Shown in pieces: positions 683 to 47,920 of a stretch of 64,000 bases of DNA. Position 1 is the first letter of the stretch. Each line of letters opens with the position of its first letter. The stretch comes from Thermoplasmatota archaeon. GTDB lineage: Archaea; Thermoplasmatota; E2; DHVEG-1. The notes below the pieces were generated by a model that worked only from the letters and a program-made list of their open reading frames with translations, searched no databases and was not told the origin of the DNA. The position numbers and the translations under genes are program-made. The stretch is taken from NCBI GenBank assembly GCA_038884455.1, contig JAWABU010000002.1:6948-70947 (forward strand), written 5' to 3'.

Positions 683-1210
683 ATGAGTATTGTTGATCTC
701 ACATCAATGGCCGGGCCGCAAACAGAACAACGCAAAGAAATCAACGAACGGCTGCAGAAACTCAAAAACGAGATTTCAGAATATTGTTTTCAATGTGCAA
801 AATGTACCGCAGGATGTGAAGCGCATAAACTTTTAGAACTTGAACCGCATAAAATCGTTGCATTGTTAAAACGTGGTCTGATCGATGAGATGGTCAACTC
901 AGAGGTCATCTGGACGTGTATGACGTGTTATAAATGCTGGGAACGATGCCCGCAGAAAGTTGCTCCTGTTCAAATTCTGTTCAGCTTAAAAAACATGGCG
1001 GTTGCAAGCGGTAAACAAATACCGGGTAAATACACCGCGATGCTGCAATCAATTATGACCATGGGTCTTATCCAAGATATTCAAGAGGTACGTACAAAAA
1101 AGAATGAATCAATAAAACGTGAAAGCCTTGGGTTGCCATCGTTGTCAAAACCAAAGGATGTTACGAAATTTCAAATGGGTTTAACCAAAGTAGCTGTTGA
1201 AAAACTCTAG
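683..1210 (+). CDS. hdrC: Heterodisulfide reductase subunit C (HdrC-like, 2x[4Fe-4S])
   Basis: Two ferredoxin motifs, CFQCAKCTAGCE and CMTCYKCWERCPQ. It is 175 aa and lies directly upstream of hdrB. Confidence 0.85.
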   Translation: MSIVDLTSMAGPQTEQRKEINERLQKLKNEISEYCFQCAKCTAGCEAHKLLELEPHKIVALLKRGLIDEMVNSEVIWTCMTCYKCWERCPQKVAPVQILFSLKNMAVASGKQIPGKYTAMLQSIMTMGLIQDIQEVRTKKNESIKRESLGLPSLSKPKDVTKFQMGLTKVAVEKL

Positions 1211-1213
1211 CGA

Positions 1214-2110
1214 ATGCTTATGAAAAAGAAATATGTATTATATCCTGGCTGTTTGATGCCAACGGAACAATACGCATACGAACTCTCACTTCGGGAGATC
1301 TTACCAGTTTTTGACATAGAACTTGTTGATATCGATGGTTTTTCGTGCTGTGGTGAACCAATGAAAAGTGTGAACCAGCTGTTAACAGTATCACTTGCAG
1401 CTCGAAATCTTGCGATTGCTGAATCTGAAAAACGTGACCTGTTTGTTCCCTGTTCAATGTGTCATCTTTCTCTTTCTGAATGTCAACGTATCCTAAAAAC
1501 CGATGAATCCTTGAAACAACGCATTAACACAGTTCTTGCTGAGGAAGGTCTCATCTATCATGGATCACATCAGATTGTTCATACGGTTGAGCTGTTCTAT
1601 GATCATATTGGCCTTGACAGAATAAAAGAAAAAGTCAAACACCCACTCACCGGGTTGAAACTGGTGACGCATCCGGGTTGTCATCTCATCAGGCCTAGTG
1701 AGGTTGGACGACCTGATCATGCAGAAAACCCGCAAAAAATGGAAAAAATTATAGAAGCACTCGGTGCACAACCGGTCCATTATTATCCGCAGAAACTTGA
1801 TTGTTGTGGTGCACCGTTGCTTGCAAATCTTCCTGAATCAGCACTCACGAAAACCGGGCAGAAACTTGCTGCTATCCAACAACAAGGCTACGATGGCGTG
1901 GTTGATGTCTGTCCCTGGTGTCATAAGATGATGGATGCTCGGCAAACGAAAGCTGGTGAGACTGTTGCAGCACAACTGGATCTGCCGGTTGTCTATCTTA
2001 CACAGCTTATTGGTCTTGCACTGGGTATTTCATCTGAGAAACTTGGTTTACAGTTGAACCTAAGTCCTGTTGAAAAACTCAAACCAGCTGAGAAAAAGAA
2101 GGAGACCTGA
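1214..2110 (+). CDS. hdrB: Heterodisulfide reductase subunit B (HdrB, two CCG domains)
   Basis: First CCG signature is C13-x31-C45C46(GEP)-x33-C80-x2-C83. A second CCG signature is present (HPGCH...LDCCGAPLL...VCPWCH). The gap to hdrC is 3 nt. Confidence 0.85.
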   Translation: MLMKKKYVLYPGCLMPTEQYAYELSLREILPVFDIELVDIDGFSCCGEPMKSVNQLLTVSLAARNLAIAESEKRDLFVPCSMCHLSLSECQRILKTDESLKQRINTVLAEEGLIYHGSHQIVHTVELFYDHIGLDRIKEKVKHPLTGLKLVTHPGCHLIRPSEVGRPDHAENPQKMEKIIEALGAQPVHYYPQKLDCCGAPLLANLPESALTKTGQKLAAIQQQGYDGVVDVCPWCHKMMDARQTKAGETVAAQLDLPVVYLTQLIGLALGISSEKLGLQLNLSPVEKLKPAEKKKET

Positions 2111-4068
2111 TGCGGCGAATCGGTGTGTTCATCTGTCATTGTGGAATCAACATTGCTCATACGGTTGATGTTGAAAAGCTCACCAAGTATGCAGCAACTC
2201 TTGATAGTGTTGTGGTTGCAAAACAGTACAAGTATATGTGTTCTGATGTTGGAGCAACCTTGATTAAAGATACGATTAAAGAGCATAAACTTGATGGTGT
2301 GGTGATTGCTTCATGTTCTCCAAGGATGCATGAGCATACGTTTCGAAAAGTTGCTAGTGACGGTGGTGTGAACCCGTATAGAATTGAGATAGTAAATATC
2401 CGTGAACAATGCTCTTGGGCGCATACCGATAAAGAAAAAGCAACAGAAAAAGCACAAGCATTGGTTCGAAGCGCAGTTGCAAAAGCAAAACTTTTGGAAC
2501 CTTTAAAAACCTCAAAAGTGCCTGTGATACCAAAAGCATTAGTTATTGGAGCTGGGATCGCTGGTATCCAAGCTGCTCTTGATCTGGCAAATGATGGTTT
2601 TCATGTGTATCTCGTGGAACGTGAACCAAGCATCGGCGGGCATATGAGTCAACTTGATAAAACATTTCCAACCCTTGACTGTTCATCCTGTATTCTGACT
2701 CCGAAAATGATGGAGGTTGCTAATCATGCAAACATTGAGTTATTCACCTACTCTGAGGTTGCCGCACTTGAAGGAAGCATCGGGAATTACACCGTAAAAA
2801 TCCGGAAAAAACCAAGGTACGTTGATGTCACCAAATGCACAGGATGTAACGACTGTGCTCAGGCATGCCGTATGAAAGGTCATGTAAGTGATGATTTTAA
2901 TATGCATCTGGGAAAACGCAGTGCAATATACATGCCGTTTCCCCAGGCAGTACCTTTGAAATGCACGATTGATCCAAAGCATTGTTTGATGATCACTCGG
3001 GGTAAATGCGGTGATGAACCACTGTGTGTGAAAGCCTGTGCGCAGGGTGCTATTGATTTTACTCAAAAAGAAGAAACTGTCGACATCAATGTTGGTGCAA
3101 TTATTGTTGCAACTGGATATGATCTTATGGATCCAAGCATGCTGTATGAGTATAGTTATGATCATGCACCTGATGTGATTACAACTCTTGAACTGGAACG
3201 ACTCATCAGCTCCTCAGGTCCAACCAAAGGAGAAATACTTCGGCCAAGTGATCAGCAGAAACCAAAAAGTATAAGCTTTATCCTCTGTGTTGGGTCTCGT
3301 GATGAAAACCAATGCAGTTGGTGCTGCCGGATTGGGTGTATGAGTGCACTCAAACATGTGTATCTGCTGCGGGAAAAACTTGGTGAGGATGTTGAAATCA
3401 ACCTGTGTTATACCGATATCAGATCCTATGGTAAAGGCTATGAGGAGTTCTACCGGAAAATCAGAGGACAAAAAATTAACATGTTCCGTGGACGCCCCTC
3501 AGAGATACGAGATGAAAAAAACTATCTCAAGTTTGACATTTTTGATACCATGACCAATAAACTCTTTGAGATTACTACTGATCTTGTGGTTCTTGTCCCA
3601 GCAGTAGTTCCTCGTGACGACGCAAAGGAACTTGCACGAATGCTCAACCTCACCCAAAGCGGAGATGGTTTTCTCCTTGAAGCGCATCCAAAACTACGAC
3701 CCATGGATACATTTGTGAATGGTATTTTTATTGCAGGCTGCTGCCAGGGACCAAAAGACATTCAAGATACCGTGTCCCAAGCAAGTGGCGCTGCATCACG
3801 AGCTGCAACGATTCTTTCACAAAAAGAACTGGAAATCGATCCGCTCATCGCAGCAGTTGATGAAGACATCTGCACCGGCTGCGGTTTATGTGTTGATATC
3901 TGTCCCTATGAAGCGCGAACACTTAACAAAAAATCAAAGATTGCAGAAGTCAACGAAGCACTCTGTTTAGGGTGTGGTGCATGTATTGTTGCTTGTCCAA
4001 GTCATGCATCGATTCATAAAAATTTTACAAAAAAACAACTCCTCAACATGGTTGATGAAATCATCTAA
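2110..4068 (+). CDS. hdrA: Heterodisulfide reductase subunit A (canonical-length HdrA, FAD and multiple FeS)
   Basis: N-terminal domain [19 protein letters not shown]; Rossmann motif VIGAGIAGIQAALDLA; LDKTFPTLDCSSC; inserted ferredoxin CTGCNDCAQAC; CVGSRDENQCSWCC. The C-terminus carries CTGCGLCVDICP and CLGCGACIVACP. The start overlaps the hdrB stop (TGATG at 2108-2112). Confidence 0.9.
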   Translation: MRRIGVFICHCGINIAHTVDVEKLTKYAATLDSVVVAKQYKYMCSDVGATLIKDTIKEHKLDGVVIASCSPRMHEHTFRKVASDGGVNPYRIEIVNIREQCSWAHTDKEKATEKAQALVRSAVAKAKLLEPLKTSKVPVIPKALVIGAGIAGIQAALDLANDGFHVYLVEREPSIGGHMSQLDKTFPTLDCSSCILTPKMMEVANHANIELFTYSEVAALEGSIGNYTVKIRKKPRYVDVTKCTGCNDCAQACRMKGHVSDDFNMHLGKRSAIYMPFPQAVPLKCTIDPKHCLMITRGKCGDEPLCVKACAQGAIDFTQKEETVDINVGAIIVATGYDLMDPSMLYEYSYDHAPDVITTLELERLISSSGPTKGEILRPSDQQKPKSISFILCVGSRDENQCSWCCRIGCMSALKHVYLLREKLGEDVEINLCYTDIRSYGKGYEEFYRKIRGQKINMFRGRPSEIRDEKNYLKFDIFDTMTNKLFEITTDLVVLVPAVVPRDDAKELARMLNLTQSGDGFLLEAHPKLRPMDTFVNGIFIAGCCQGPKDIQDTVSQASGAASRAATILSQKELEIDPLIAAVDEDICTGCGLCVDICPYEARTLNKKSKIAEVNEALCLGCGACIVACPSHASIHKNFTKKQLLNMVDEII

Positions 4069-4085
4069 AAAAAGGTTTCATACGT

Positions 4086-7000
4086 ATGGCAAAGAAAAAA
4101 ACAACATCATCTGATTCCTCTGCAAAACACGGCTCAGTTCTTGTTATTGGTGGTGGTATCTCAGGGATACAATCAGCTCTTGATCTTGCTGATGCTGGTT
4201 TCAAAGTCTACCTTGTTGAACGAGGGCTGAGTATCGGCGGGACGATGACGCAGCTTGATAAAACCTTTCCCACCAATGATTGTGCAATGTGTATTCTTGC
4301 ACCAAAACTCGTCTACACCGGTAGACATGAAAACATACAAATCATGACGAATGCAGAAGTAACAAGCTTGTCTGGTGATGTTGGAGATTTCCAGGTAACT
4401 ATCACGAAACATCCACGATTTGTTGATCTTGAGAAATGCAATGGATGTGGTGACTGTGTTGAACACTGTCCAGTCAATATTCTTTCAGAGTTTGATGAAG
4501 GGCTTTCGTGTCATAAAGCGATATATCAACAGTTTCCTCAGGCAATTCCAAATGTTTTTGCGATTGCGAAAACCGATGAGGTTTCACCCTGTAAAATCGC
4601 ATGTCCTGCTGGGCTGAATGCTCATGGTTTTATAGCTCTTGCCGGGCAGAAAAAGTTTGCAGAAGCATTCGAACTCATTAAGGATCGCATACCGCTGCCT
4701 GGTTCACTTGGTCGTATTTGTTATCATCCCTGTGAAACTGAATGTAACCGGAAAGATATCGATGAGTCCATCTCAATTTGTAAGATACGACGATTTGTTG
4801 CTGATTATATTTATGAACACCCTGAGGAACATCAAACATATCTAAAACTCCTTACTGAAAAACAACAAGCACAAGATAACAAGAAACGAGGGAATAATCA
4901 GAAAATAGCAATTATTGGTGCTGGACCAGCTGGTCTAACCGCTGCTTATGATCTTGGTAAACTTGGTTATAAACCAGTTATTTTTGAAGAAGAAAAATAC
5001 AGCGGTGGGATGCTTCGCTATGGTGTTCCTGATTATCGTCTTCCCCGAGATTACTTGAAAAAAGAAATCGAATTGCTCTGTAGCGAGGCTAACATTGAAA
5101 TTAAAAATAACCAGAAACTCGGTAGAGATTTTACGATAAAAGATTTGAAAAACCAAGGTTTCAAAGCAATCTTTCTTGCGATTGGAGCCCACAAAGGAAA
5201 AGCAGTTGATTTCGAATGCTCCCCCGAGTTGAAAAACAACATATTCCAAGGTGTTGAATATCTTGAACAACTCAACCGCGATATGATCGCACCTGATTAT
5301 TTCAAAGGGAAAAAAATCGTAGTAATTGGTGGTGGAAATGTTGCAATGGATGCAGCACGAACTACTCGACGTCTTGGTGCAGATGTCGAAGTTGTGTATC
5401 GAAGAACCATCAATGAGATGCCCGCGCATAAAGAAGAAATCAGACAAGCACAGGAAGAAGGAATCACGTTTACTTTTCTTACCGCACCACTTCGGTTTTT
5501 GAAAAAAGAAAAAACAACCTGTGTTGAATGTGTGCACATGGAGCTTGGGGAGCCTGACAGTAGCGGTCGACGTAGACCTGTTGAGATCAAAGGGTCAAAC
5601 TTTGATATTACCAGTGATTATGTGATTTTTGCGATTGGACAGGAAACCGATCAAAAACTCTTAGAGAATGAAGATATCAAACTCACCTCAAAAGGGTTCA
5701 TTGAGGTTGATCCAGTTACCCTGCAGACGTCGCAACCAGGTGTGTTTGCCGGTGGTGATGCTGTACTTGGACCAGCATCAGCTGTCGAAGCAATAGCTGC
5801 TGGTCATGAAGCTGCAATCTCGATTGATCGGTACCTCAACAATGAGGATGTACGGGCAGGACGTGAAAAAACAAAACCAAAATCAGCATCAATTCCAAAA
5901 ACTGCATTACGAATTCCCATTAACCGAGAACAGACAACCTTGCGTTCACCTCTTGAACGAATTAAAAATTTCCAAGAAGTTGATCAAGGTTTAACGATTG
6001 ATCAAGTACTCCGAGAAACACATCGATGTTTGAATTGTTCAGGATGCTGTGACTGCAAACAATGCGTTGTATACTGCAGCAGGAATGCCATTGATCATAC
6101 TATGAAACCATCAACAGAAACCATCTCTGTTGGTGCAGTGATCATCTCACCAGGTTTTGAGAAATACCATCCAAAAAAAGGAGATAGCCTTGGATACCAA
6201 GTGTACCCAAATGTCGTAACAAGTATCGAGTTTGAACGGATGCTTTCAGCATCAGGACCGTACAAAGGTCATATTCAGCGAATCTCAGATGGCAAAACGC
6301 CAAAGAAAATCGCCTGGCTGCAATGCGTAGGAAGTAGAGATGAAAGTTGTGACCGGAACTACTGCTCCTCAGTATGCTGTATGTATGCAACCAAAGAAGC
6401 AGTGATTGCACAAGAACATGAACCCTCTCTCACCACGCATATTTATTTCATGGATATGCGGAGTTTCGGAAAGGATTTTGAAAAGTACTTTACCCGCGCT
6501 GAGCAAGAGCATCACGTTGTATATCGACGATGCAGAATTCCGCACGTTGAACAAGATCGTGAGACGAAAAATTTGATTATTCAATATGTTGACGAGGCGG
6601 GTAATCTGCAACAAGAAACCTACGATATGGTGGTTTTGTCGGTCGGACTGCAGCCGTGCAAAGCAATAGCTGATCTTGGAAAAATTCTTGATGTAAATCT
6701 AAATGCCTACGGCTTTGTTGAAACACAACCATTTATGCAAACAGTAACCTCACGACCAGGAGTGTATGCTTCTGGGACGGTTACTGAACCAAAGGACATC
6801 CCTGAGAGTGTAACTCAGGCTTCAGCTGCTGCTGCATGTGTAGCTAAAGATATCAGTTGTGTTCGTGGTACTGAAATTGTTGAAAAAACTTATCCTGCTG
6901 AGCTCGATGTGAAAAACGAAGGAGTACGTATCGGTGTTTTTATCTGTCACTGTGGGATTAACATCAGTGGCGTGATTGATGTCAAAAAAGTAGTCAGTGA

Positions 7001-8594
7001 GACGCAGAAATGTCCCAATGTTGTGTATGTTGAGGACAGTATTTTTACTTGTTCTCAGGACACTCAAGAGCGCATCAAAGAAAAAATAAAAGAACATAAT
7101 CTCAACCGCATTGTTATTGCTTCATGTACGCCACGTACTCATGAACCACTCTTTCAGGATACGCTCAAGCAAGCAGGTTTAAATCCGCATTTATTTGAAA
7201 TGGCAAATCTCCGTGATCAAAACAGCTGGGTACATAAAAATAATCCAAAGGAAGCGACAAGAAAAGCTGTTGATTCAGTTCGAATGGCAGTTGCAAAAGC
7301 ACAAGAACTGTACCCTGTACATCATCTTCAGATACCAGTTGTTCCTCAAGCACTCATCATCGGAGGCGGTATCGCAGGTATGACCGCTGCACTTGCAATT
7401 GCTGACCAAGGATACCAAGTTTTTCTAGTTGAAAAAGAATCGTGCCTCGGCGGTCAACTTAAGAATATTTACTTTGGTATCCATGATGAAGAACCACAAC
7501 GATTTTTACAGCAAACCATAGAGCAGGTGACCACGCATGATAAAATAAAAGTTTTTACAGACACAGTTGTTGAGAAAGTTTCTGGATACGTCGGAAATTT
7601 TAAAACGAGTATTCGAACAAAAGGTAAAAAAACAGGTGAGCAGCTTGACCATGGCATCATTGTTGTTGCAACCGGTGGATTACCCTATGAACCGTCAGAG
7701 TATTGCTATAAAAAAACGCAGGATATCATCACGCAAACTGAATTTGAAAAAGATCTGTTCGATAAAAAACCGTACTTAAAAGATCTCAAGGAAGTTGTGA
7801 TGATTCAATGTGTTGGTTCACGAAACAATGATCATCCGTACTGTAGCAGGATTTGCTGTTCACAAGCAGTAAAAAATGCTCTCGTCTTAAAAAAACAAAA
7901 CCCTGCTGCTGCGATTTATGTACTCTACCGCGATATTAGAACGTATGGTTTCCGTGAAGACTCATTGTACAGAAAAGCTCGACAACAAGGAATATTGTTT
8001 GTTCATTTCAACGAAAAAGAAGAACCAAAAGTAACTGTTTCAGAGGGAAAAATCAGTGTTACCATCAAAGAGCATCTTCTTGGTCGGGAACTACATCTCC
8101 ACCCAGATAAACTGATCCTCAGCACGGGTGTTGTCCCTCAGGAAAACACACTGCTTGCCCAACAGTTAAAAGTCCCACTCACAGAAGATGGATTTTATGC
8201 AGAGGCACATGTGAAACTCAGACCTGTTGATTTCTCAGCAGATGGCATGTTTCTCTGTGGTCTTGCACATTCACCTCGCTTTATTGAAGAATCAGTAGTA
8301 CAAGCACAAGCAGCTGGTGCTCGAGCAGCAACGATTCTTTCAAAAAAATATCTTGAAACTAAAGGAAACATTGCTCGCATCCGAAACCGTAATTGTGTTG
8401 GTTGCAAGCAATGTATTGAGATTTGCCCGTATGATGCGATCAGCTTTGATGAGGAGAAAAAAATCGCAGTGGTGAATGAAATTCTTTGTCAAGGCTGTGG
8501 TGCATGTGCAACGATTTGTCCAAGTGGCACTTCACAGCAGAATACGTTTACTAAAAAACAGATTGTATCTATGATTGATGCATGTTTGGAGTAG
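4086..8594 (+). CDS. Giant HdrA-family fusion (1502 aa): HdrA-like module 1 interrupted by a GltD/NfnB-type NAD(P)H:FAD oxidoreductase module, then HdrA-like module 2 with C-terminal 2x[4Fe-4S] (HdrL-like)
   Basis: Module 1: [41 protein letters not shown]. GltD-like part: [58 protein letters not shown]. Module 1 resumes with [13 protein letters not shown] and [19 protein letters not shown]. Module 2: [70 protein letters not shown]. Confidence 0.85.
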
Positions 8595-8601
8595 ATCATC
8601 T

Positions 8602-9048
8602 ATGAGTGAAGATAAAAACGAAAAGAAAAAAGAATTTGAACCAAAAATCGTTGGTTTTCTCTGCAACTGGTGTAGCTATGCTGGAGCAGATCTTGCAGGT
8701 ACGAGTCGTATCCAGTATCCCCCGAATATTAGAATTATTCGGGTGATGTGTTCAGGATCTGTCGATTCTATGTATATTCTCCGAGCATTACTTGAAGGTG
8801 CTGATGGTGTTTTTGTGGGCGGCTGTCATCCTGGTGACTGTCATTATCTTGATGGGAACTACAAAGCCAGACGACGTATGGTGCTGCTTAAGAATATTCT
8901 AACAACACTAGGCATTGAACCTGACCGTGTTTGGATTCGCTGGATATCAGCATCAGAAGGTCAAAAATTTGCAGAAACTATGAAAGATATGACTGAAACC
9001 ATTCGGAAACTTGGACCTAACCCAATACCGAAACATTGGAATCTCTGA
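8602..9048 (+). CDS. mvhD: MvhD/FlpD-like [2Fe-2S] electron-transfer subunit
   Basis: [15 protein letters not shown]...IRVMCSG...[10 protein letters not shown] is the MvhD signature. I prefer the ATG at 8602 ([10 protein letters not shown]), 7 nt after the upstream stop, to the track start at 8575, which overlaps the upstream gene. Confidence 0.85.
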
Positions 9049-9061
9049 GGTGAAAAAAACT

Positions 9062-10186
9062 ATGCAACATGGTTTGTTAAAAATAAAAAACGATGATGTT
9101 TCTGAAACAGTCAATGAATTCTTAAGAGAACTGCTTGCATCAAAAAAGATTAGTGCATTGCTTGTTCCTCAGATGGTTCCCTCAAAGAAAACAGTATTTC
9201 CAGTTCTTATCTCTGATCCGAAAAAACTTTCAGCTGATGTTTTCGCACCGGTTCTTCCTGTATCAACAGCAACTATGGTGTCAAAGATAACGAAACATCA
9301 AGCGCCAAGCACGCCTATCGCGGTTGTTCTACATCCCTGTCAGATCCGTGCTCTTATCGAACTTACAAAACTGAATCAAGCACGTCTTGAAAACATCATA
9401 CTCATTGGTGTTGATTGTCTTGGTACCTATCCGGTTACAACCTATGCAGTGCTTGCTGAGAAAAAAAATCCAACCAAACAGATACTTGAAACACTTACAA
9501 AAAAAACAAGCGATACTGAAAGTAAGCTTCGAACAGCGTGCAAGGTATGTACTGAACCAATCCCAGGATACGCTGATATGAGTATTGGCTTGTATGGCAT
9601 GCATCTTGAAAAAGAAATCCTGATCCAAGCACATACTGATGCTGGAAAAAAACTTATCTCTGAAGTTACTCTTGAGGATGCACAAGATAAAATCAAACAT
9701 CGTGATCAAGTTGTTAAAAAAATTTGTGAAGAACGAGAAAAAGCAGTGCAAAGTTTTATACACGAGAAAGCAGGTAGTAAAGGAATTGAAGCACTCACTA
9801 AATTTTTTGATACCTGTAGTAACTGTCATAATTGTATGAAGGCTTGTCCGATTTGTTATTGTAAAGAATGTTTGTTTGATTCCTCGATTTTTGATGCAGA
9901 GGGAAATAAGTTTATCAGAAAAGCAGAACAGAAAGGTTTGTTTAAAATGCCCAGTGATGTACTCCTATTTCATGTAGGACGGATGAATCACATGATTCTC
10001 TCCTGTGTGAAATGCGGTCTTTGTGAGCAGGCTTGTCCAAGTCTGATTCCATTGATGGATATTTTTATTCCAGCTGCTGTGAATGCACAAAAAGAATTCA
10101 CGTATCATCCTGGTAAAGATAAAGATGAGAAAATCCCTATGATTGTGTATCGTGAAGATGAATATACTGATGTTGGAGAAGCGTAA
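9062..10186 (+). CDS. FrhB/FdhB-family flavo-iron-sulfur protein with C-terminal 2x[4Fe-4S]
   Basis: VLHPCQIRALIEL..LIGVDCLGTY and ACKVCTEPIPGYADMSIGLYG resemble FrhB/FdhB signatures (recalled from memory). The C-terminus has CSNCHNCMKACPICYCKEC and CVKCGLCEQACP. The ATG at 9062 is preceded by GAGGTGA (9047-9053). Confidence 0.7.
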   Translation: MQHGLLKIKNDDVSETVNEFLRELLASKKISALLVPQMVPSKKTVFPVLISDPKKLSADVFAPVLPVSTATMVSKITKHQAPSTPIAVVLHPCQIRALIELTKLNQARLENIILIGVDCLGTYPVTTYAVLAEKKNPTKQILETLTKKTSDTESKLRTACKVCTEPIPGYADMSIGLYGMHLEKEILIQAHTDAGKKLISEVTLEDAQDKIKHRDQVVKKICEEREKAVQSFIHEKAGSKGIEALTKFFDTCSNCHNCMKACPICYCKECLFDSSIFDAEGNKFIRKAEQKGLFKMPSDVLLFHVGRMNHMILSCVKCGLCEQACPSLIPLMDIFIPAAVNAQKEFTYHPGKDKDEKIPMIVYREDEYTDVGEA

Positions 10187-10189
10187 ACC

Positions 10190-10855
10190 ATGGAAGGTAT
10201 TGATTCTCAAAAACTTGATCCGAACTTCAAATTCCAGATAGCCCAAGAACCGGGTGGCGAAGGCATTCTGAAATGTTTTGCGTGTGGATCATGTACTGCA
10301 CGATGCCCTGAGATGCAGGTGAAAACCTCATGGAACCCACGATTGATCATTCGGAAAGCATTGTATGGTTTGAAAGAAGAAGTCCTGAGTAGCGAGTTTC
10401 CTTGGATTTGCAGTGCACATTATCGCTGTCTTGAAAAATGCCCGCAAAAAGTCAATGTCAAAGAAGTCATGAATGCCGTACGCAACACAAGACTTGACGA
10501 AGAATATATTGAAGATATTACTGAGAAACAAACAAAAAAACAACTTGACCTAAGCTTCAAATACACCATAGCCAAGGATGCATCAGGAAAAGATTTGTAC
10601 GAATGTTTCTCCTGTGGAACATGTACTGCTGGCTGTCCAGAACGAGAACTCGATCCGTTATATTCATCCAGAAAAGTGATCAAACAAACACTGCTAGGTA
10701 TGAAGGATCATGTCTATAGCAATAAGTTTGTTGAAATCTGTTCTATGCATCATCGATGTTTGACGCAATGCCCACAGGGTGTTGAGATTCCAAAACTGAT
10801 GAATGCATTAAAAAACATCGCAGTTCGAGAAGGATATGAACGAAAAAACGAGTAG
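10190..10855 (+). CDS. Tandem-duplicated HdrC-like FeS protein (two HdrC repeats in one chain)
   Basis: Repeat 1: CFACGSCTARCPE ... CSAHYRCLEKCPQ. Repeat 2: CFSCGTCTAGCPE ... CSMHHRCLTQCPQ. Each repeat is about 105 aa. Confidence 0.75.
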   Translation: MEGIDSQKLDPNFKFQIAQEPGGEGILKCFACGSCTARCPEMQVKTSWNPRLIIRKALYGLKEEVLSSEFPWICSAHYRCLEKCPQKVNVKEVMNAVRNTRLDEEYIEDITEKQTKKQLDLSFKYTIAKDASGKDLYECFSCGTCTAGCPERELDPLYSSRKVIKQTLLGMKDHVYSNKFVEICSMHHRCLTQCPQGVEIPKLMNALKNIAVREGYERKNE

Positions 10856-13800
10856 ACAACCTATGACCAAGAAAACAGAAAAAATCGGAGCTGTTGCAGT
10901 AATCGGTGGTGGGATTACTGGTGTTCAAGCAGCACTTGATCTAGCAGACATGGGGTTTAAAATCTTTCTTTTTGAAAAAACACCGGCGATTGGCGGTGTC
11001 ATGGCACAACTTGATAAAACCTTTCCAACCAACGATTGTTCAATGTGTATTCTTTCACCAAAACTCGTCGACTGTGCTCGTCATCCAAATATCCAGATGT
11101 ATACGAACACCGATGTTGAAGCAATCCATGGTAAACCAGGTAATTTTACAATAACAGCAACGAAAAAACCAAGGTTTGTTGATCTTGAAAAATGCACCTC
11201 GTGTGGTTCCTGTGCCGATGTCTGCCCAATAAAGTTACCTAATGAATATGAGTTTGGGTTAGTTGATCGAAAAGCTATCTATAAATGTTACCCTCAGGCG
11301 ATTCCTAATGCCTATGTGATTGATAAAATCGGTGATGGAAAAAAACGAAAATGTGTTGAATGCATGAAATGTGTTGAGGTGTGCACATCAGGTGCCATTA
11401 ACCATAAAGAAAAACCTGAAACACTTGAAGTATCTGTTGGTGCTGTGATTATTGCTGCTGGATCAACACCTTTTAACCCGGTGGTTAAACCAGAGTTTGG
11501 GTATACAAAATACAAAAATGTGCTGACAAGTATTGAGTTTGAACGTATTCTTTCAGCATCAGGTCCGTTTCAAGGAAAAATCCTTCGACCAAGTGATCAA
11601 AAAGAACCAAAAAAAATTGCTTGGATTCATTGTGTTGGGTCTCGTGATGCAAGCGTGGGAAATCCGTATTGTTCTGCGATGTGTTGCATGTATACGGCGA
11701 AAGAAGCAGTAATTGCCAAAGAACACAGCAAACACATAGAACCAACCGTGTTTTACATTGATATCAGATCGTATGGTAAAGATTTTGATCGGTATATTGA
11801 TCGTGCAAAACAAGAACACAACATTCGGTATGTACGATCACGGATTTCTGAAATTATTGAGGATCCAAAAACAAAGAATCTGGTTATCCGCTATGAGGAT
11901 GATTGTGGAGAATTGAAAAACGATGTTTTTGACATGGTGGTTCTCTCAGTTGGACTCTGTAGTTCTGAGCCGCGCCGTCATGAACTTTTAGAAAAGCTTG
12001 GCGTGCCACTAAATGAGTTTGGTTTTCTCAAGTCCAATGCTGATGACCCAGTTACAACAAACATTCCTGGTGTTTTTGTTGCTGGATCAATTCTAGAGCC
12101 TCAAGCAATCCCTGAGAGCGTAACTCAGGCGTCAGCTGCTGCTGCAAAAGCAGCAATGCTTCTTGCAGATGTGCGTGGAACCTTAGTTCAAGAAAAAACC
12201 TATCCAAAAGAACGTGACGTTTCTGATCAGGAACCACGTGTCGGTGTTTTTATCTGTCATTGCGGGATCAACATCGGAGGCGTTCTTAATATTGAACAGC
12301 TGGTTTCATATACCAAGAAACTACCGGATGTTGTTCATGTTGAAGCGAATCTGTATTCATGTTCTGAGGATACTCAGAAAAAAATCGTTGATGCTATCAA
12401 AAAACATAACCTGAATCGTATCCTTGTTGCCGCGTGTACACCGCGTACTCATGAACCATTGTTTCAGAAAAGTCTTCGACAGGCTGGGTTAAACCCGTTT
12501 CTATTGGAGATGACCAATATTCGTGAGCAGTGTTCCTGGGTGCATATGGACACACCAAAAAAAGCAACAGAAAAAGCAGAAAAACTGATTGCAATGAATG
12601 TTGCAAAAACACGGCTCCTGCAACCGATACGAACTGTTCAAATACCCGTGATTCAAACCGCTCTGATCATTGGTGGTGGTATCGCAGGTATGACTGCTGC
12701 GCTCTCACTAGCGGATCAAGGGTTTGAAACAGTTCTAGTGGAAAAAGAAAATCGTCTTGGCGGTCATCTCCATGACGTGTTCTCCACCGTTGATGGTGTT
12801 GATATTCAAAAGCTGCTTCAAAGCACTACTGAGAAGATCAGGAATCATCCGCGAATCAAAACATATCTTAATGCCCAGGTGAAAAACGTGAAAGGATACG
12901 TGGGTAATTATGAATCAGAGATTCAAACACCAGCAGGACTTGAACGATACACCCATGGTGTCATTGTTGTTGCCACCGGTGTTCAAGAATATATCCCAAC
13001 AACGTATAATTATGGGAAAGACAACCGTATACTAACCCAGACACATCTGGAAAAACAACTCGCCACAATGACCAAAGATGATATTGTTGATGGTGAAACC
13101 TTTGTGATGATTCAATGTGTTGAATCACGAGACGAGAAACGATCATACTGTAGCAGGATTTGCTGTATGCAAGCAGTAAAAAATGCATTAAAAATAAAAG
13201 AACTCAACCCAAAAGCAGAAGTGTTCATATTGTATCGAGATCTTATGACGTATGGTTTCAAAGAAATTTTCTACAAACAAGCTCGGGAACAAGGTATCAT
13301 GTTTATGCAATATGATCCCTGTAAAAAACCAAAACTGGAAATAAAAAAAGAACTCAGTGTGAATATCTATGAACCGATGCTTCAAGAAACTGTTGAGATC
13401 CCAGCGCATCATGTGATTCTAGCGAGTGGTATGAAACCTTATGAAGACACAGAGAGGCTTGCAAAACTTTTAAAAGTCCCGATAACCAGTGATGGTTTTT
13501 TCCTAGAGGCACATGTAAAACTACGGCCGGTTGATTTTTCAACCCGTGGCGTGTTTCTTGCAGGCTGCTGTCATACACCAAAATTTATCGCTGAATCGAT
13601 CTATCAAGGACAAGCTGCTGCTGCTCGTGCCGGAACACTTTTGTCATCCTCCTTGTTAGAATCAGAACCAAATGTCGCTGTGGTCAACAAAGAGTTATGT
13701 AGTGGATGTAAAACCTGTATTATCACGTGTCCGTATCATGCAATAGATTCAGCTCAAGAAGAACAAAAAGGAAAAAAAATAGTCTACGCAAAGGTTAACG

Positions 13801-13913
13801 AAGGTTTATGTCAGGGTTGTGGCACATGCGTTGCTTCTTGTCCTGCAGGTGCTATTGAGCAATGTGGTTTTAGAGATCGGCAAATCATCCCAATGGTTGA
13901 TGAAGCAGTTTAA
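10836..13913 (+). CDS. HdrA-HdrA fusion (1025 aa), paralog of the 1502-aa protein without the GltD module
   Basis: Collinear with 4086-8594: [71 protein letters not shown]. Module 2: [74 protein letters not shown]. An alternative start at ATG 10863 would avoid overlap with the upstream gene. Confidence 0.85.
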   Translation: MNEKTSRQPMTKKTEKIGAVAVIGGGITGVQAALDLADMGFKIFLFEKTPAIGGVMAQLDKTFPTNDCSMCILSPKLVDCARHPNIQMYTNTDVEAIHGKPGNFTITATKKPRFVDLEKCTSCGSCADVCPIKLPNEYEFGLVDRKAIYKCYPQAIPNAYVIDKIGDGKKRKCVECMKCVEVCTSGAINHKEKPETLEVSVGAVIIAAGSTPFNPVVKPEFGYTKYKNVLTSIEFERILSASGPFQGKILRPSDQKEPKKIAWIHCVGSRDASVGNPYCSAMCCMYTAKEAVIAKEHSKHIEPTVFYIDIRSYGKDFDRYIDRAKQEHNIRYVRSRISEIIEDPKTKNLVIRYEDDCGELKNDVFDMVVLSVGLCSSEPRRHELLEKLGVPLNEFGFLKSNADDPVTTNIPGVFVAGSILEPQAIPESVTQASAAAAKAAMLLADVRGTLVQEKTYPKERDVSDQEPRVGVFICHCGINIGGVLNIEQLVSYTKKLPDVVHVEANLYSCSEDTQKKIVDAIKKHNLNRILVAACTPRTHEPLFQKSLRQAGLNPFLLEMTNIREQCSWVHMDTPKKATEKAEKLIAMNVAKTRLLQPIRTVQIPVIQTALIIGGGIAGMTAALSLADQGFETVLVEKENRLGGHLHDVFSTVDGVDIQKLLQSTTEKIRNHPRIKTYLNAQVKNVKGYVGNYESEIQTPAGLERYTHGVIVVATGVQEYIPTTYNYGKDNRILTQTHLEKQLATMTKDDIVDGETFVMIQCVESRDEKRSYCSRICCMQAVKNALKIKELNPKAEVFILYRDLMTYGFKEIFYKQAREQGIMFMQYDPCKKPKLEIKKELSVNIYEPMLQETVEIPAHHVILASGMKPYEDTERLAKLLKVPITSDGFFLEAHVKLRPVDFSTRGVFLAGCCHTPKFIAESIYQGQAAAARAGTLLSSSLLESEPNVAVVNKELCSGCKTCIITCPYHAIDSAQEEQKGKKIVYAKVNEGLCQGCGTCVASCPAGAIEQCGFRDRQIIPMVDEAV

Positions 13914-47165: not shown

Positions 47166-47632
47166 ACCGAGTGAAAACGTATGAGCAAACCGGCATTCTT
47201 GCTCTTTCAGATCTCATTCTTCCATCAAAAAAACAGTTGGAGAAAGGAGTTGCGATTCTTGAATGTATCCAAGAAATACCATGTAACCCCTGTGTTGATG
47301 CATGTCCTGTGCATGCGATTTCTATGAAAGATATCAATGCACCTCCGGTGAACAACTATGATCTCTGTACCGGATGTACTCGATGTGTCGGGATTTGTCC
47401 TGGTCTTGCTATTTTTGTCATAAAAATCAAACAAGGAAAGGCATATGTGACGCTTCCGTATGAATTTTTACCGATTCCAAAGGTTGGAGATACTGTCCGT
47501 GGATTGGATCGAGCTGGAGTGTATCAGACCGATGCCGTGGTTACTCGGGTTGTTCGACAGGGGAAAACCATGGTGATTACGATTGAAGTTCCAGAGCAGT
47601 ATGCTCTTGAGATTAGAAATATTCAGGTTTGA
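47162..47632 (+). CDS. Ferredoxin-like small subunit (gamma-type) of the same complex
   Basis: CNPCVDACP and CTGCTRCVGICP motifs. 156 aa. ATGA overlap with the upstream gene. Confidence 0.7.
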   Translation: MNRVKTYEQTGILALSDLILPSKKQLEKGVAILECIQEIPCNPCVDACPVHAISMKDINAPPVNNYDLCTGCTRCVGICPGLAIFVIKIKQGKAYVTLPYEFLPIPKVGDTVRGLDRAGVYQTDAVVTRVVRQGKTMVITIEVPEQYALEIRNIQV

Positions 47633-47638
47633 GATGGT

Positions 47639-47920
47639 ATGGTTCAAAAAAGTGTTGTGTGTCGATGTGAGGATATCACAGAAGATGATGTTCTTGAAGC
47701 AATTGCTGAGGGTTACACTGATCTTGAGGAGCTGCGGAAAAAACTCCGTATTGGAATGGGGCCATGTCAGGGTCGTGTGTGCATTCAGCTTGTTATGAAG
47801 ATTCTGGAGAAAAAAACCGGGAAAAAAGTTACCAAAGCCTCATTGCATAAACCACGGCCGCCGTTGATTCCGGTGCCGCTGAAAACACTTGCACGTGATC
47901 ATGATGAAACGAAAAGCTGA
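47639..47920 (+). CDS. BFD-like [2Fe-2S]-binding small subunit (delta-type)
   Basis: CRCEDITEDDVLEAI...GMGPCQGRVC is the BFD-like 2Fe-2S pattern. 93 aa. Confidence 0.7.
   Translation: MVQKSVVCRCEDITEDDVLEAIAEGYTDLEELRKKLRIGMGPCQGRVCIQLVMKILEKKTGKKVTKASLHKPRPPLIPVPLKTLARDHDETKS

What the first reader, a model, noticed from the sequence alone, without database searches (positions are those of the whole stretch)
4578..6026. A complete GltD/NfnB-type NAD(P)H oxidoreductase module is spliced into the inserted-ferredoxin domain of an HdrA module
Seen in sequence:
- Aligned by eye, the 1502-aa and 1025-aa paralogs are collinear up to ...QAIPN(V/A)(F/Y)(A/V)I(A/D)K. They are collinear again from C(L/V)(N/E)C...C to the end.
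- Only the 1502-aa protein carries about 480 extra residues in between (aa 165-647).
- The insert has the two N-terminal Cys clusters ([10 protein letters not shown]...CYHPCETEC). It also has both Rossmann folds of glutamate-synthase small-subunit-like proteins ([17 protein letters not shown] and [14 protein letters not shown]) and VFAGGDAV.
Inference:
- The insertion sits exactly where HdrA carries its peripheral ferredoxin domain.
- That would wire a pyridine-nucleotide site directly into the HdrA FeS chain in one polypeptide.
- The insert-free paralog in the same operon gives a before/after pair.
Basis: partly seen in the sequence, partly recalled or inferred. Interest (0 to 1): 0.65.

Follow-up and report, generated by a model that had tools for sequence, protein, structure and literature searches.

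The report
HdrA protein with nested NADPH module
An archaeal redox protein of the heterodisulfide-reductase type carries a full NADPH-binding flavin module nested inside one of its iron-sulfur domains; this is real, but the design (HdrL, or "type III HdrA") is already published and is common in anaerobes.

Summary
The ORF at 4086-8594 (1502 aa) and the ORF at 10836-13913 (1025 aa) are collinear paralogs. The long one has about 490 extra residues (aa 163-653, nt 4572-6044) between the two Cys motifs of the HdrA inserted-ferredoxin domain. The extra piece is a GltD/NfnB-type FAD/NAD(P)H module.

It is not new. The architecture is published as HdrL (Desulfobacterium, Syntrophobacter), as HdrA9-11 with an NfnB-like insertion (ANME-1, 2022), and as "type III HdrA" (2025). 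Here it sits in a hot-spring Thermoplasmatota MAG. The same roughly 1500-aa protein occurs in more than 100 sequence clusters and in many bacterial and archaeal phyla, so a mis-join is excluded.

- The module is circularly permuted relative to NfnB/GltD. Its first CxxC lies at the C-terminal end (C648, C651), fused two residues before the ferredoxin motif.
- Its closest solved relatives are the non-bifurcating NADPH-entry modules of the NfnABC/StnABC transhydrogenases, not NfnB or GltD.
- Both paralogs are tandem HdrA fusions.
- They belong to two ancient, co-inherited families (100% bootstrap), so they are not a recent before/after pair.

Most likely function: a hard-wired NADP(H) port on an Hdr bifurcating complex.

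The parts
683..1210 (+). HdrC-like subunit (175 aa)
   Evidence: NCBIfam CoB_CoM_SS_C E 3.5e-22; Pfam Fer4_8/Fer4_17
1214..2110 (+). HdrB-like subunit (298 aa, two CCG domains)
   Evidence: Pfam CCG E 1e-23; NCBIfam CoB_CoM_SS_B E 1e-67
2110..4068 (+). Canonical full-length HdrA (652 aa). It has the N-terminal domain, the TrxR-like FAD domain, the inserted ferredoxin and the C-terminal ferredoxin.
   Evidence: NCBIfam HdrA2/HdrA models match over aa 3-651. Used as the domain ruler.
4086..8594 (+). HdrL / type III tandem HdrA (1502 aa): unit 1 carrying the nested NADPH module, fused to unit 2
4086..4571 (+). Unit 1, N-part. It contains the FAD Rossmann motif (GGGISG at aa 22), the C66xxC69 pair (the equivalent of 'Cys197'), ferredoxin motif 1 (C118xxC121xxC124xxxC128P, nt 4437-4469), and a linker ending at the invariant K162. 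There is no HdrA N-terminal domain.
   Evidence: L19-155 aligns to canonical HdrA 144-282 at 54% identity. C118/121/124/128 and K162 are invariant in 40 family members.
4572..6044 (+). Nested, circularly permuted NfnL/GltD-type module (aa 163-653)
   Evidence: Absent from the paralog; Pfam; PDB hits
4584..4817 (+). Fe-S helical domain of the module (Fer4_20 profile positions 30-111). It holds C169, C173, C212, C216 and C220. The variable fourth-ligand position is R235 (nt 4788-4790), with C232 (nt 4779-4781) three residues before it.
   Evidence: The five Cys are invariant. Position 235 is K in 21 and R in 19 of 40 members; position 232 is C in 20 of 40. Position 235 aligns with StnC K170 and the NfnL Glu (papers).
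4917..4934 (+). FAD-binding Rossmann fingerprint G278-A-G-P-A-G283 of the module
   Evidence: Invariant GxGPxG in 40/40 members
5328..5405 (+). NAD(P)H-binding Rossmann: G415-G-G-N-V-A420 (GxGxxA) through Y438-R-R440
   Evidence: GxGxxA in 40/40 members and YRR in 38/40. The same motifs occur in the NADPH-using StnC and NfnL (alignments).
5958..6038 (+). Permuted tail (aa 625-651, ERIKNFQEV...RC648LNC651). It corresponds to the N-terminal segment of NfnB/GltD and supplies the last two Cys of the module.
   Evidence: The tail alone matches Fer4_20 profile positions 1-27 (E 8e-4). A de-permuted construct matches positions 1-111 in one stretch at 91 bits, against 59 bits as found. NfnL residues 7-45 align here.
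6045..6077 (+). Ferredoxin motif 2 of the HdrA inserted-ferredoxin domain (C654xxC657xxC660xxxC664), fused two residues after C651
   Evidence: Aligns to C173-C183 of the paralog. The motif RC[LIM]xCxxCxxCxxCxxxC is present in 118 of the 120 best family members.
6078..6920 (+). Unit 1, C-part of the TrxR-like domain with the C747/C760/C764/C765 cluster motif. There is no C-terminal ferredoxin.
   Evidence: L654-911 aligns to canonical HdrA 300-557
6921..8591 (+). Unit 2. It has the HdrA N-terminal domain ([10 protein letters not shown]...), the TrxR-like FAD domain (GGGIAG at aa 1093) and the C-terminal 2x[4Fe-4S] ferredoxin. It has neither the CxxC pair nor an inserted ferredoxin.
   Evidence: L948-1179 aligns to canonical HdrA 3-234, and L1190-1498 to 329-649
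8575..9048 (+). MvhD-like [2Fe-2S] subunit. The true start is probably downstream of the TTG at 8575.
   Evidence: Pfam FlpD E 3e-58 over aa 25-147. The ortholog in L081 is 149 aa.
9011..10186 (+). FrhB/FdhB-like flavo-iron-sulfur protein (391 aa)
   Evidence: Pfam FrhB_FdhB_C E 7e-10 plus Fer4_8. Conserved at the same place in L081 and L083.
10190..10855 (+). HdrC-like protein with two dicluster domains (221 aa)
   Evidence: NCBIfam CoB_CoM_SS_C E 5.5e-38, two stretches
10836..13913 (+). Insert-free tandem HdrA paralog (1025 aa) with an intact inserted ferredoxin (C120..C130, C173..C183)

Best explanation
The ORF at 4086-8594 encodes an HdrL-type protein, also called 'type III HdrA' (class A9-TRX-C-like). 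Two complementary HdrA units are fused in one chain.

The first unit carries a circularly permuted NfnL/GltD-type module between the two Cys motifs of its inserted ferredoxin. The module holds FAD, a NADPH site and two [4Fe-4S] clusters.

The module most likely acts as a non-bifurcating two-electron/one-electron converter, as it does in the NfnA/StnC subunits of the Bfu-type transhydrogenases. The proposed route runs as follows:
1. NADP(H) exchanges a hydride with the module's FAD.
2. Single electrons pass through the FAD-proximal cluster (C173, C212, C216, plus R235 or C232).
3. They pass through the distal cluster (C169, C220, C648, C651).
4. They enter the two clusters of the HdrA inserted ferredoxin.
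5. They cross the cluster shared between the N-terminal domain of unit 2 and C66/C69 of unit 1.
6. They reach an HdrA flavin.

The branch that in methanogen HdrA ends at free ferredoxin is thereby turned into a hard-wired NADP(H) port. That port belongs to a larger complex of HdrABC, MvhD, an FrhB-like protein and a second tandem HdrA.

Shown: the anatomy, the conservation of all ligand and nucleotide motifs, the permutation, the family membership and the distribution.

Inferred: cofactor occupancy, NADPH over NADH, the direction of electron flow, and the other substrates. The most economical reaction is NADPH as the mid-potential donor, reducing a disulfide at HdrB and a low-potential acceptor elsewhere in the complex.
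For: Anatomy.

The module's closest relatives by sequence are NfnA of T. sibiricus NfnABC (361 bits), C. saccharolyticus NfnA (353) and StnC (340), against NfnL at 294 and GltD at 186. The order is the same by fold. The AF2 model has pLDDT 91.3 and pTM 0.90. Foldseek gives TMq 0.73-0.74 over 520-553 columns for NfnA/StnC, against 0.66 over 441 columns for NfnL.

In those enzymes the module is the NADPH entry site with a non-bifurcating FAD (PMC10482914; PMC12018979).

Permutation: Fer4_20 positions 30-111 lie at aa 167-244 and positions 1-27 at aa 625-651. De-permuting raises the score from 59 to 91 bits.

Conservation across 40 diverse members: seven invariant Cys plus a K/R position, invariant GxGPxG, GxGxxA, YRR and R318.

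The fused motif RCLxCxxCxxCxxCxxxC is present in 118 of 120 members.

No NfnA/NfnS-like (PyrK-type) partner gene is in the 64-kb window.

The eight-gene operon is conserved in a 75%-identical relative.

The role of the inserted-ferredoxin branch and of the Cys197/N-domain cluster is taken from Chadwick et al. 2022. The same repurposing hypothesis was published for type III HdrA (PMC12054007).
Against: No biochemistry exists for any HdrL.

I could not read coordinates of the model, so no cluster-to-flavin distances were measured.

The Arg that hydrogen-bonds flavin N5 in bifurcating NfnL is conserved here (R318), so bifurcation at this flavin cannot be excluded from sequence alone.

The proximal-cluster ligand is Arg (or C232) in this clade. 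It is not the Lys of NfnA/StnC, and its effect on potential is unknown.

A published analysis argues for NADH rather than NADPH.

This archaeon is not known to make CoM/CoB, so the HdrB substrate is unknown.
Confidence: 0.7

Rival explanations
1. The NfnB-like flavin is a second true bifurcation site. HdrL would then hold two bifurcating flavins joined through their low-potential branches, as suggested for ANME-1 HdrA9-11.
For: Chadwick et al. 2022 raise this possibility. R318, the equivalent of NfnL R201/R187, is invariant. NfnL is a close homolog at 39% identity.
Against: The module belongs to the permuted NfnA/StnC lineage, whose FAD is non-bifurcating although it keeps the same Arg. No NfnS/NfnA(PyrK)-like partner that would provide the high-potential exit is in the window. 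The proximal-cluster Glu of NfnL is replaced by Arg or Lys.
Confidence: 0.12
2. The module uses NADH, not NADPH, as proposed for type III HdrA from a GXGXXG motif.
For: PMC12054007 argues for NAD+ preference. The module does contain a GxGxxG motif (G278AGPAG283).
Against: In the GltD/NfnL fold, that GxGxxG motif is the FAD-binding Rossmann. The second, pyridine-nucleotide Rossmann reads G415GGNVA420 (GxGxxA). It is followed by Y438RR440, exactly as in the NADPH-using StnC, NfnA and NfnL (alignments; conservation). Assigning these motifs to the 2'-phosphate site rests on established knowledge of the family, not on a test made here.
Confidence: 0.15
3. The extra segment is an assembly chimera (mis-join) or a recent insertion private to this genome.
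For: Logan contigs of the source run are fragmentary and do not span the downstream junction at 6024-6044.
Against: A 99%-identical full-length protein is on an independent MAG contig, and more than 100 clusters of 1473-1529 aa have 98-100% coverage. At least 79 of the 80 best loci, each from a different species-level genome and from many phyla, cover the tail-plus-junction region. A 243-nt contig with no differences spans the upstream junction. There is no change in composition across 4-7 kb.
Confidence: 0.01
4. The module is a degenerate, cofactor-free structural insert that merely blocks ferredoxin access.
For: None specific. The published structure prediction notes that the insert would occlude the ferredoxin docking face.
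Against: All seven Cys ligands, both Rossmann fingerprints, YRR and R318 are invariant or nearly so across 40 members at about 45-75% identity. That pattern indicates purifying selection on cofactor binding.
Confidence: 0.02

Closest known systems
HdrL of sulfate reducers and syntrophs (Desulfobacterium autotrophicum HdrL1-3; Syntrophobacter fumaroxidans Sfum_0824, in the cluster HdrABC / FeS protein / MvhD / HdrL)
   Same: A large HdrA/glutamate-synthase fusion with a NAD(P)H site, followed by mvhD and clustered with hdrABC and an FdhB/FrhB-like FeS protein. The junction-specific alignment retrieves Syntrophobacterales, Desulfobacterales and Smithella loci.
   Different: This copy is archaeal (Thermoplasmatota). 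It has Arg plus Cys232 instead of Lys at the proximal-cluster position. No selenocysteine is evident. I did not align the named HdrL proteins themselves.
ANME-1 HdrA9/10/11 (Chadwick et al. 2022) and 'type III HdrA' classes A9, A9-TRX-C and A10 (Microbiol Spectr 2025)
   Same: A roughly 500-aa NfnB/GltD-like insertion interrupting the inserted-ferredoxin domain of HdrA. The A9-TRX-C class also carries a second thioredoxin-reductase unit. The same hypothesis is made that the ferredoxin site is repurposed for NAD(P)H.
   Different: Those papers report it as rare: some ANME-1 and Bathyarchaeota, nine sequences, a 'recent' insertion. Here the family is broad and old. The papers do not mention the permutation, and they infer NADH where I infer NADPH.
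NfnL-like module of the Bfu-type transhydrogenase large subunit (T. sibiricus and C. saccharolyticus NfnA; S. ovata StnC; PDB 9n5u, 9bov, 8oh5)
   Same: The best sequence and fold matches. The order is the same permuted core-then-tail. The module is likewise inserted into a host Fe-S protein, and the proximal cluster has three Cys plus one basic residue. These modules use NADPH and have a non-bifurcating FAD.
   Different: The host there is a NuoG/HydA-like subunit, entered after a [2Fe-2S] domain. The tail continues as RCLxCGCxxxxxC rather than into a ferredoxin CxxCxxCxxxC motif. The ligand is Lys there and Arg here.
NfnB/NfnL of NfnAB/NfnSL (PDB 4ylf, 5jca) and GltD (PDB 2vdc, 6s6s)
   Same: The same two-Rossmann FAD/NADPH fold with two [4Fe-4S] clusters, at 36-39% (NfnL) and 28-29% (GltD) identity.
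   Different: Those proteins have the canonical N-terminal tail, a Glu (NfnL) ligand, and an obligatory partner subunit (NfnA/NfnS or GltB). That partner is absent from the window.

Membership tests
HdrL / type III HdrA (HdrA with inserted GltD/NfnB-like domain) | HdrA thioredoxin-reductase-like FAD domain with its Cys-rich [4Fe-4S] motif | tested here: met
   PDB HdrA chains match at E 1e-148 to 1e-176 in four collinear stretches. NCBIfam HdrA/HdrA2 models match. The motifs CVGSRD...YCSxxCC are at aa 747-765 and aa 1242-1258.
HdrL / type III HdrA (HdrA with inserted GltD/NfnB-like domain) | GltD/NfnB-like FAD/NAD(P)H module located between the two Cys motifs of the inserted ferredoxin domain | tested here: met
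   Motif 1 is at aa 118-128, the module at aa 163-653, and motif 2 at aa 654-664.
HdrL / type III HdrA (HdrA with inserted GltD/NfnB-like domain) | Gene followed by mvhD and clustered with hdrB/hdrC | tested here: met
   FlpD/MvhD at 8575-9048; HdrC and HdrB at 683-2110. The arrangement is conserved in L081/L082.
HdrL / type III HdrA (HdrA with inserted GltD/NfnB-like domain) | NAD(P)H-dependent activity of the complex | not testable with these tools
   No biochemistry is available. Only proteomic detection in S. fumaroxidans is reported.
Bifurcating NfnB/NfnL (large subunit of NfnAB/NfnSL) | Canonical order: N-terminal helix plus CxxC preceding PCxxxCP | tested here: not met
   Fer4_20 positions 1-27 lie about 455 residues downstream of positions 30-111.
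Bifurcating NfnB/NfnL (large subunit of NfnAB/NfnSL) | Glu as fourth ligand of the FAD-proximal [4Fe-4S] cluster | tested here: not met
   The aligned position is R235 here, and K or R across the family. The papers define the position.
Bifurcating NfnB/NfnL (large subunit of NfnAB/NfnSL) | Partner NfnA/NfnS (PyrK-like, [2Fe-2S] plus FAD) encoded alongside | tested here: not met
   tblastn with a PyrK-like protein from L083 finds nothing significant in the 64-kb window; the best hit has E 0.006 and lies inside the module's own Rossmann fold. The rest of the genome was not searched.
Bifurcating NfnB/NfnL (large subunit of NfnAB/NfnSL) | Arg positioned to hydrogen-bond flavin N5 | tested here: inconclusive
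   R318 is invariant. The same Arg is kept in the non-bifurcating StnC/NfnA, where it points away from N5.
NfnL-like inserted module of Bfu-type NfnA/StnC | Permuted core-then-tail order and insertion into a host Fe-S protein | tested here: met
   Single collinear alignments to 9bov_A residues 99-584 and 8oh5_C residues 101-575 include the tail. Foldseek aligns 520-553 columns.
NfnL-like inserted module of Bfu-type NfnA/StnC | Lys ligand on the proximal cluster, and a NuoG/HydA-like host | tested here: not met
   This protein has Arg235, and the host is HdrA. Bacterial HdrL clades do have Lys.
Glutamate synthase small subunit GltD | Equivalog-level similarity, and partnership with GltB | tested here: not met
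   TIGR01317/TIGR01318 score 197-259 bits against cut-offs of 448-483. No GltB is in the operon.

The most novel reading that the evidence does not exclude
HdrL and the co-inherited insert-free tandem HdrA work in one supercomplex. In it, NADPH enters through the nested permuted module. Electrons then pass through two successive HdrA-type bifurcations (up to five HdrA flavins are encoded in the operon). The final acceptor is ferredoxin, reduced at the free inserted-ferredoxin domain of the insert-free paralog. This would give non-methanogenic Thermoplasmatota, and many anaerobic bacteria, a NADPH-driven, disulfide-coupled route to reduced ferredoxin. The Arg/Cys versus Lys choice at the proximal cluster would tune the port.
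Probability: 0.12. Interest if true: 0.6.

Novelty: new member of a known kind. Interest (0 to 1): 0.25.

Why it matters
Hdr-type complexes are one of the four families of flavin-based electron-bifurcating enzymes. No HdrL has been purified, so which pyridine nucleotide it uses, and in which branch, is still unknown.

This window adds no new kind of protein. It does add four points to the published picture:
- The family is much more widespread and older than described. It is not confined to a few ANME-1, Bathyarchaeota or sulfate-reducer genes.
- The nested module is a circular permutant whose termini meet at one [4Fe-4S] site. That explains how a 490-residue flavoenzyme can sit inside a 60-residue ferredoxin.
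- The same cassette recurs in many other Fe-S hosts.
- The nucleotide motifs point to NADPH.

These points help in choosing constructs and cultured organisms for the first biochemical or cryo-EM study.

Tried and rejected
1. Read-level test of the junctions. The source run (a hot-spring metagenome) is available only as fragmentary, low-depth Logan contigs. One contig spans the upstream junction cleanly and none spans the downstream one. The three 'joints' listed have sides of only 21-27 letters and come from 90-95%-alike contigs, most likely other hdrA genes. I treated this test as inconclusive and relied on conservation across assemblies.

2. Search for an NfnA/NfnS (PyrK-like) partner in the window. 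Nothing was found.

3. Literature search for a description of the circular permutation in NfnB, GltD, NfnL or HdrA papers. None was found in the searchable library. This does not show that it was never noted.

4. Search for papers on Hdr clusters in hot-spring Thermoplasmatota. Nothing specific turned up.

5. The first bootstrap tree script timed out. I redid it with a faster distance routine.

6. I considered a recent in-operon duplication followed by insertion. I rejected it because the window's HdrL is closer to bacterial HdrLs (59% identity on HdrA-only columns) than to its operon paralog (51.6%).

7. I considered ANME-1 as the source organism, because of the literature match. I rejected it because the 99%-identical database protein is labelled Thermoplasmatota.

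8. Cluster-to-flavin distances could not be measured, because model coordinates are not returned by the tools.
Full report
**1. What is in the sequence**

The region holds one long operon on the + strand:

| Coordinates | Product |
|---|---|
| 683-1210 | HdrC |
| 1214-2110 | HdrB |
| 2110-4068 | Canonical 652-aa HdrA |
| 4086-8594 | The 1502-aa protein in question |
| 8575-9048 | MvhD |
| 9011-10186 | FrhB/FdhB-like flavo-FeS protein |
| 10190-10855 | HdrC-like protein with two dicluster domains |
| 10836-13913 | 1025-aa HdrA paralog |

Downstream genes include ribosomal protein L15, a SecY with a Sec61-type plug, and RNA polymerase subunits B, A' and A''. The organism is therefore an archaeon. 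The nearest database protein is 99% identical, has the same length, and comes from a 'Candidatus Thermoplasmatota archaeon' MAG. The only public run holding the sequence is a hot-springs metagenome.

**2. Check of the observation**

BLASTP of the two large proteins shows collinearity of aa 9-162 with aa 11-164 (57% identity) and of aa 654-1498 with aa 173-1022 (51% identity). Residues 163-653 of the long protein have no counterpart.

Pfam finds Fer4_20 (aa 167-244) and Pyr_redox_2 (aa 273-573, E 3e-67) in that segment.

The one factual correction concerns the right boundary. BLAST and family conservation instead pair C654xxC657xxC660xxxC664 with C173xxC176xxC179xxxC183. C648 and C651 therefore belong to the insert.

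**3. The host is a tandem HdrA**

I used the canonical HdrA of the same operon (A) as a ruler against the 1502-aa protein (L):
- L19-155 matches A144-282. This is the FAD Rossmann motif, the CxxC pair and ferredoxin motif 1.
- L654-911 matches A300-557. This is ferredoxin motif 2 and the rest of the thioredoxin-reductase-like domain.
- L948-1179 matches A3-234. This is the N-terminal cluster domain and a second FAD domain.
- L1190-1498 matches A329-649. This is the rest of that domain and the C-terminal ferredoxin.

Unit 1 lacks the N-terminal domain and the C-terminal ferredoxin, but it keeps the C66xxC69 pair and the inserted ferredoxin. Unit 2 has the opposite set.

This is the complementary 'built-in heterodimer' pattern that Chadwick et al. 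2022 describe for fused and tandem HdrA of ANME. Here, however, the unit without the N-terminal domain comes first. The 1025-aa paralog has the same two-unit plan without the insert.

**4. The insert is GltD/NfnB-like but circularly permuted**

Against solved structures, the segment scores as follows:

| Target | Bits |
|---|---|
| T. sibiricus NfnABC NfnA (9n5u_A) | 361 |
| C. saccharolyticus NfnA (9bov_A) | 353 |
| S. ovata StnC (8oh5_C) | 340 |
| P. furiosus NfnL (5jca_L) | 294 |
| T. maritima NfnB (4ylf_B) | 284 |
| GltD | 186 |

The alignments to 9bov_A and 8oh5_C run in one piece through aa 163-660. The alignment to NfnL splits. NfnL residues 48-473 match the core (aa 165-587), while NfnL residues 7-45 match aa 613-651 at the far end of the insert.

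I tested this directly:
- As found, the insert matches only positions 30-111 of the 113-position Fer4_20 profile (59.4 bits).
- The tail alone matches positions 1-27 (E 8e-4).
- An in-silico de-permuted sequence matches positions 1-111 in one stretch (91 bits).

The module is therefore a circular permutant. The new termini fall between the CxxC and the PCxxxCP that together bind one [4Fe-4S] cluster. Both ends of the insert meet at that cluster, which is what allows a 490-residue flavoenzyme to sit inside a small ferredoxin fold.

The junctions are minimal. The invariant K162 is followed by 3-5 residues and then PC169. At the other end, C651 is followed by two residues and then C654.

The resulting motif RC[LIM]xC-xx-CxxCxxCxxxC is present in 118 of the 120 best family members.

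An AlphaFold2 model of aa 105-690, built with 40 homologs, is confident throughout, including the tail and both junctions (pLDDT 91.3, pTM 0.90). Foldseek ranks NfnA and StnC first (TMq 0.73-0.74 over 520-553 aligned columns). NfnL follows (0.66 over 441 columns), then GltD (0.63) and DPD (0.61). The roughly 100 extra aligned columns fit the tail being collinear only in NfnA and StnC.

**5. Cofactor sites**

Seven Cys of the module are invariant in 40 diverse members: C169, C173, C212, C216, C220, C648 and C651. The eighth ligand position is R235 here, and K (21) or R (19) across the family. It aligns with Glu in NfnL and with Lys170/Lys165 in StnC/NfnA, where it ligates the FAD-proximal cluster. 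In the Thermoplasmatota clade a Cys (C232) lies three residues before it.

By homology, the proximal cluster is C173/C212/C216 plus R235 or C232, and the distal cluster is C169/C220/C648/C651. The StnC and NfnA papers fix which cluster is proximal. The rest of the assignment is from my memory of the DPD and NfnB structures.

Because C651 and C654 are three residues apart, the distal cluster and one ferredoxin cluster must lie close together. This is a geometric inference, not a measurement.

The other conserved sites are:
- The FAD Rossmann fingerprint G278xGPxG283, in 40 of 40 members.
- The second Rossmann, G415xG417xxA420, in 40 of 40 members.
- Y438RR440, in 38 of 40 members.
- R318, in 40 of 40 members.

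The GxGxxA and YRR pattern is identical to the NADPH-using StnC, NfnA and NfnL, so I predict NADPH. A 2025 paper inferred NADH from a GXGXXG motif. In this fold that motif is the FAD site, so I consider NADH less likely.

**6. Distribution**

The full-length search returns more than 100 clusters (at 90% identity) of 1473-1529 aa with 98-100% coverage. They come from Thermoplasmatota, Sumerlaeota, Aerophobetes and unnamed metagenomes. There are also variants of about 1650 aa.

I scanned one genome per GTDB species with an alignment limited to the tail, the fused motif and the first 70 residues after it. One of the two scan patterns is generic to HdrA, so not all 595 are necessarily HdrL.

Of the 80 best loci, at least 79 cover the tail and junction. 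They include:
- Thermoplasmatota
- Smithella, Syntrophobacterales, Desulfobacterales, Desulfobaccales and Desulfarculus
- Dehalococcoidia
- Planctomycetota
- Acidobacteriota
- Verrucomicrobiota
- Bacillota, including the isolate Desulfotruncus arcticus DSM 17038
- Armatimonadota, Bacteroidota and TA06

This excludes a mis-join. It also shows that the family is far broader than the nine archaeal sequences of the 2025 survey.

An exhaustive search with the insert alone shows that nearly all of the 150 best 50%-identity representatives carry the permuted core-then-tail order. They fall into these groups:
- 30 have the HdrA-type nesting. Ferredoxin motif 1 lies 41-64 residues upstream, and the tail motif is fused.
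- About 50 are StnC/NfnA-like proteins of 1050-1250 aa, whose tail continues as RCLxCGC.
- 11 are other hosts in which the tail is fused to a CxxCxxCxxxC motif.
- A few are stand-alone proteins of about 500 aa, for example P0236 (513 aa, 56% identical).
- Only two have the canonical order.

The permuted module is thus a promiscuous cassette.

**7. The 'before/after pair'**

The insert-free tandem HdrA is itself a wide family of about 1015 aa, found in Thermoplasmatota and Sumerlaeota-like bacteria. It repeatedly shares contigs with HdrL, as matching contig lengths show. The whole eight-gene operon is conserved in a 75%-identical relative.

I built a neighbour-joining tree on 995 HdrA-only columns, with 31 HdrL proteins (inserts excised) and 18 insert-free proteins. 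The split between the two families has 100% support in 200 bootstraps. Each family contains an archaeal and a bacterial subclade, also at 100%.

On the same columns, the window's HdrL is 59% identical to bacterial HdrLs but only 51.6% identical to its operon paralog.

The two genes are therefore ancient, co-inherited paralogs. One gain, or one loss, on the branch between the families is compatible with the unrooted tree. It is not a recent event, and its direction is undetermined.

**8. Mechanism**

In methanogen HdrA, the inserted-ferredoxin branch carries low-potential electrons from the bifurcating FAD to free ferredoxin. The electrons pass through the cluster shared between the N-terminal domain and Cys197 of the partner (Chadwick et al.). 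In HdrL, that branch ends in the nested module.

In the closest characterised relatives of the module, NADPH reduces a non-bifurcating FAD, which feeds single electrons into a cluster chain. No NfnS-type partner is encoded nearby.

My best-supported reading (about 0.7 for identity plus general mechanism) is a hard-wired NADP(H) port. The chain runs: NADP(H), module FAD, proximal cluster, distal cluster, two ferredoxin clusters, N-domain cluster, HdrA FAD.

The direction and the partner substrates are inferred only. NADPH as the mid-potential donor, reducing a disulfide at HdrB and a low-potential acceptor elsewhere, is thermodynamically the neatest option. It is also the published hypothesis for type III HdrA.

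One candidate site for the low-potential acceptor is the unobstructed inserted ferredoxin of the insert-free paralog. Another is the MvhD/FrhB-like arm.

Rivals:
- A second bifurcating flavin (0.12).
- NADH instead of NADPH (0.15).
- An assembly artefact (0.01).
- An inert insert (0.02).

**9. Comparison with what is known, and novelty**

The architecture has been described three times:
[quoted passage not shown] The window's protein is a new, Thermoplasmatota member of that kind.

Four things I could not find in the searchable literature:
- The circular permutation and the fused 2+4 Cys motif.
- The kinship with the NfnA/StnC cassette.
- The real breadth and age of the family.
- The co-inherited insert-free partner.

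These are refinements, not a new category. Interest is modest (0.25).

Noticed in passing
L083 (Aerophobetes MAG contig JAYEHT010000075.1), 1-18633: This bacterial locus carries two HdrL genes in one operon; one is cut by the contig end. With them are two mvhD genes, an FrhB-like gene, hdrC and hdrB. A PyrK/NfnS-like gene (NAD_binding_1 plus DHODB_Fe-S_bind) and lactate-related genes (LUD domain, LarA-like, FAD-linked oxidase, CCG protein) are also present. Some bacterial HdrL complexes may therefore be tied to lactate oxidation and may have an NfnS-like partner.
   Followed up: partly
Proteins P0081, P0083, P0108, P0109, P0111, P0113-P0115 and others (about 1650 aa): In one HdrL subgroup the distance from PCxxxCP to the RCLxC tail is about 630 residues instead of about 480. 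Something of roughly 150 residues is therefore inserted inside the already nested module, a third level of nesting. One example is labelled Thermoplasmata archaeon M8B2D.
   Followed up: no
Protein P0236 (513 aa): This is a stand-alone protein consisting of just the permuted module. It ends right after RCLQC and is 56% identical to the window's insert. It is either a free-living form of the cassette or one piece of a split HdrL gene. Its context could not be looked up.
   Followed up: no
window 4779-4790 (C232, R235) and family alignment A2: The fourth-ligand position of the FAD-proximal cluster is Arg with a Cys three residues upstream in the Thermoplasmatota clade (SIC[KR]IRRF). It is Lys without that Cys in most bacterial clades (AIRDIKRF, AIDLLKRF). 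Some sequences are mixed (SICALKRF). This may be a lineage-specific tuning of the cluster potential.
   Followed up: partly
window 8575-8594, 9011-9048, 10836-10855: Successive ORFs of the operon overlap by 20-38 nt as listed. The TTG starts at 8575 and 9011 are probably not the real starts. The FlpD domain begins at aa 25, and the ortholog in L081 starts 6 nt after the HdrL stop. Tight spacing suggests translational coupling.
   Followed up: no
window 45669-49052: This three-gene cluster encodes a [2Fe-2S] (Fer2_4) plus Pyr_redox_2 protein (498 aa), a 156-aa ORF, and a DAO-family FAD oxidoreductase (387 aa). It resembles the archaeal sarcosine-oxidase/proline-dehydrogenase-like clusters.
   Followed up: no
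window 49902-53462 (-) and 56133-58232 (-): The first is a 1186-aa ORF with only a weak CarboxypepD_reg-like match. The second is a 699-aa protein with NosD/beta-helix and PKD domains. Both are probably secreted or surface proteins.
   Followed up: no
window 4935-5537 (-): A 200-aa GTG ORF lies antisense inside the module-coding region. Nothing supports it as a gene, and it is probably a shadow ORF.
   Followed up: no
window 3800-9200, run X1: The contigs of the only run holding this sequence show three apparent 'joints' (skips of 90, 2665 and 820 nt). Their sides are only 21-27 letters long, and they come from contigs 90-95% alike. They most likely reflect conserved motifs shared with other hdrA genes of related strains, not deletions.
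   Followed up: partly
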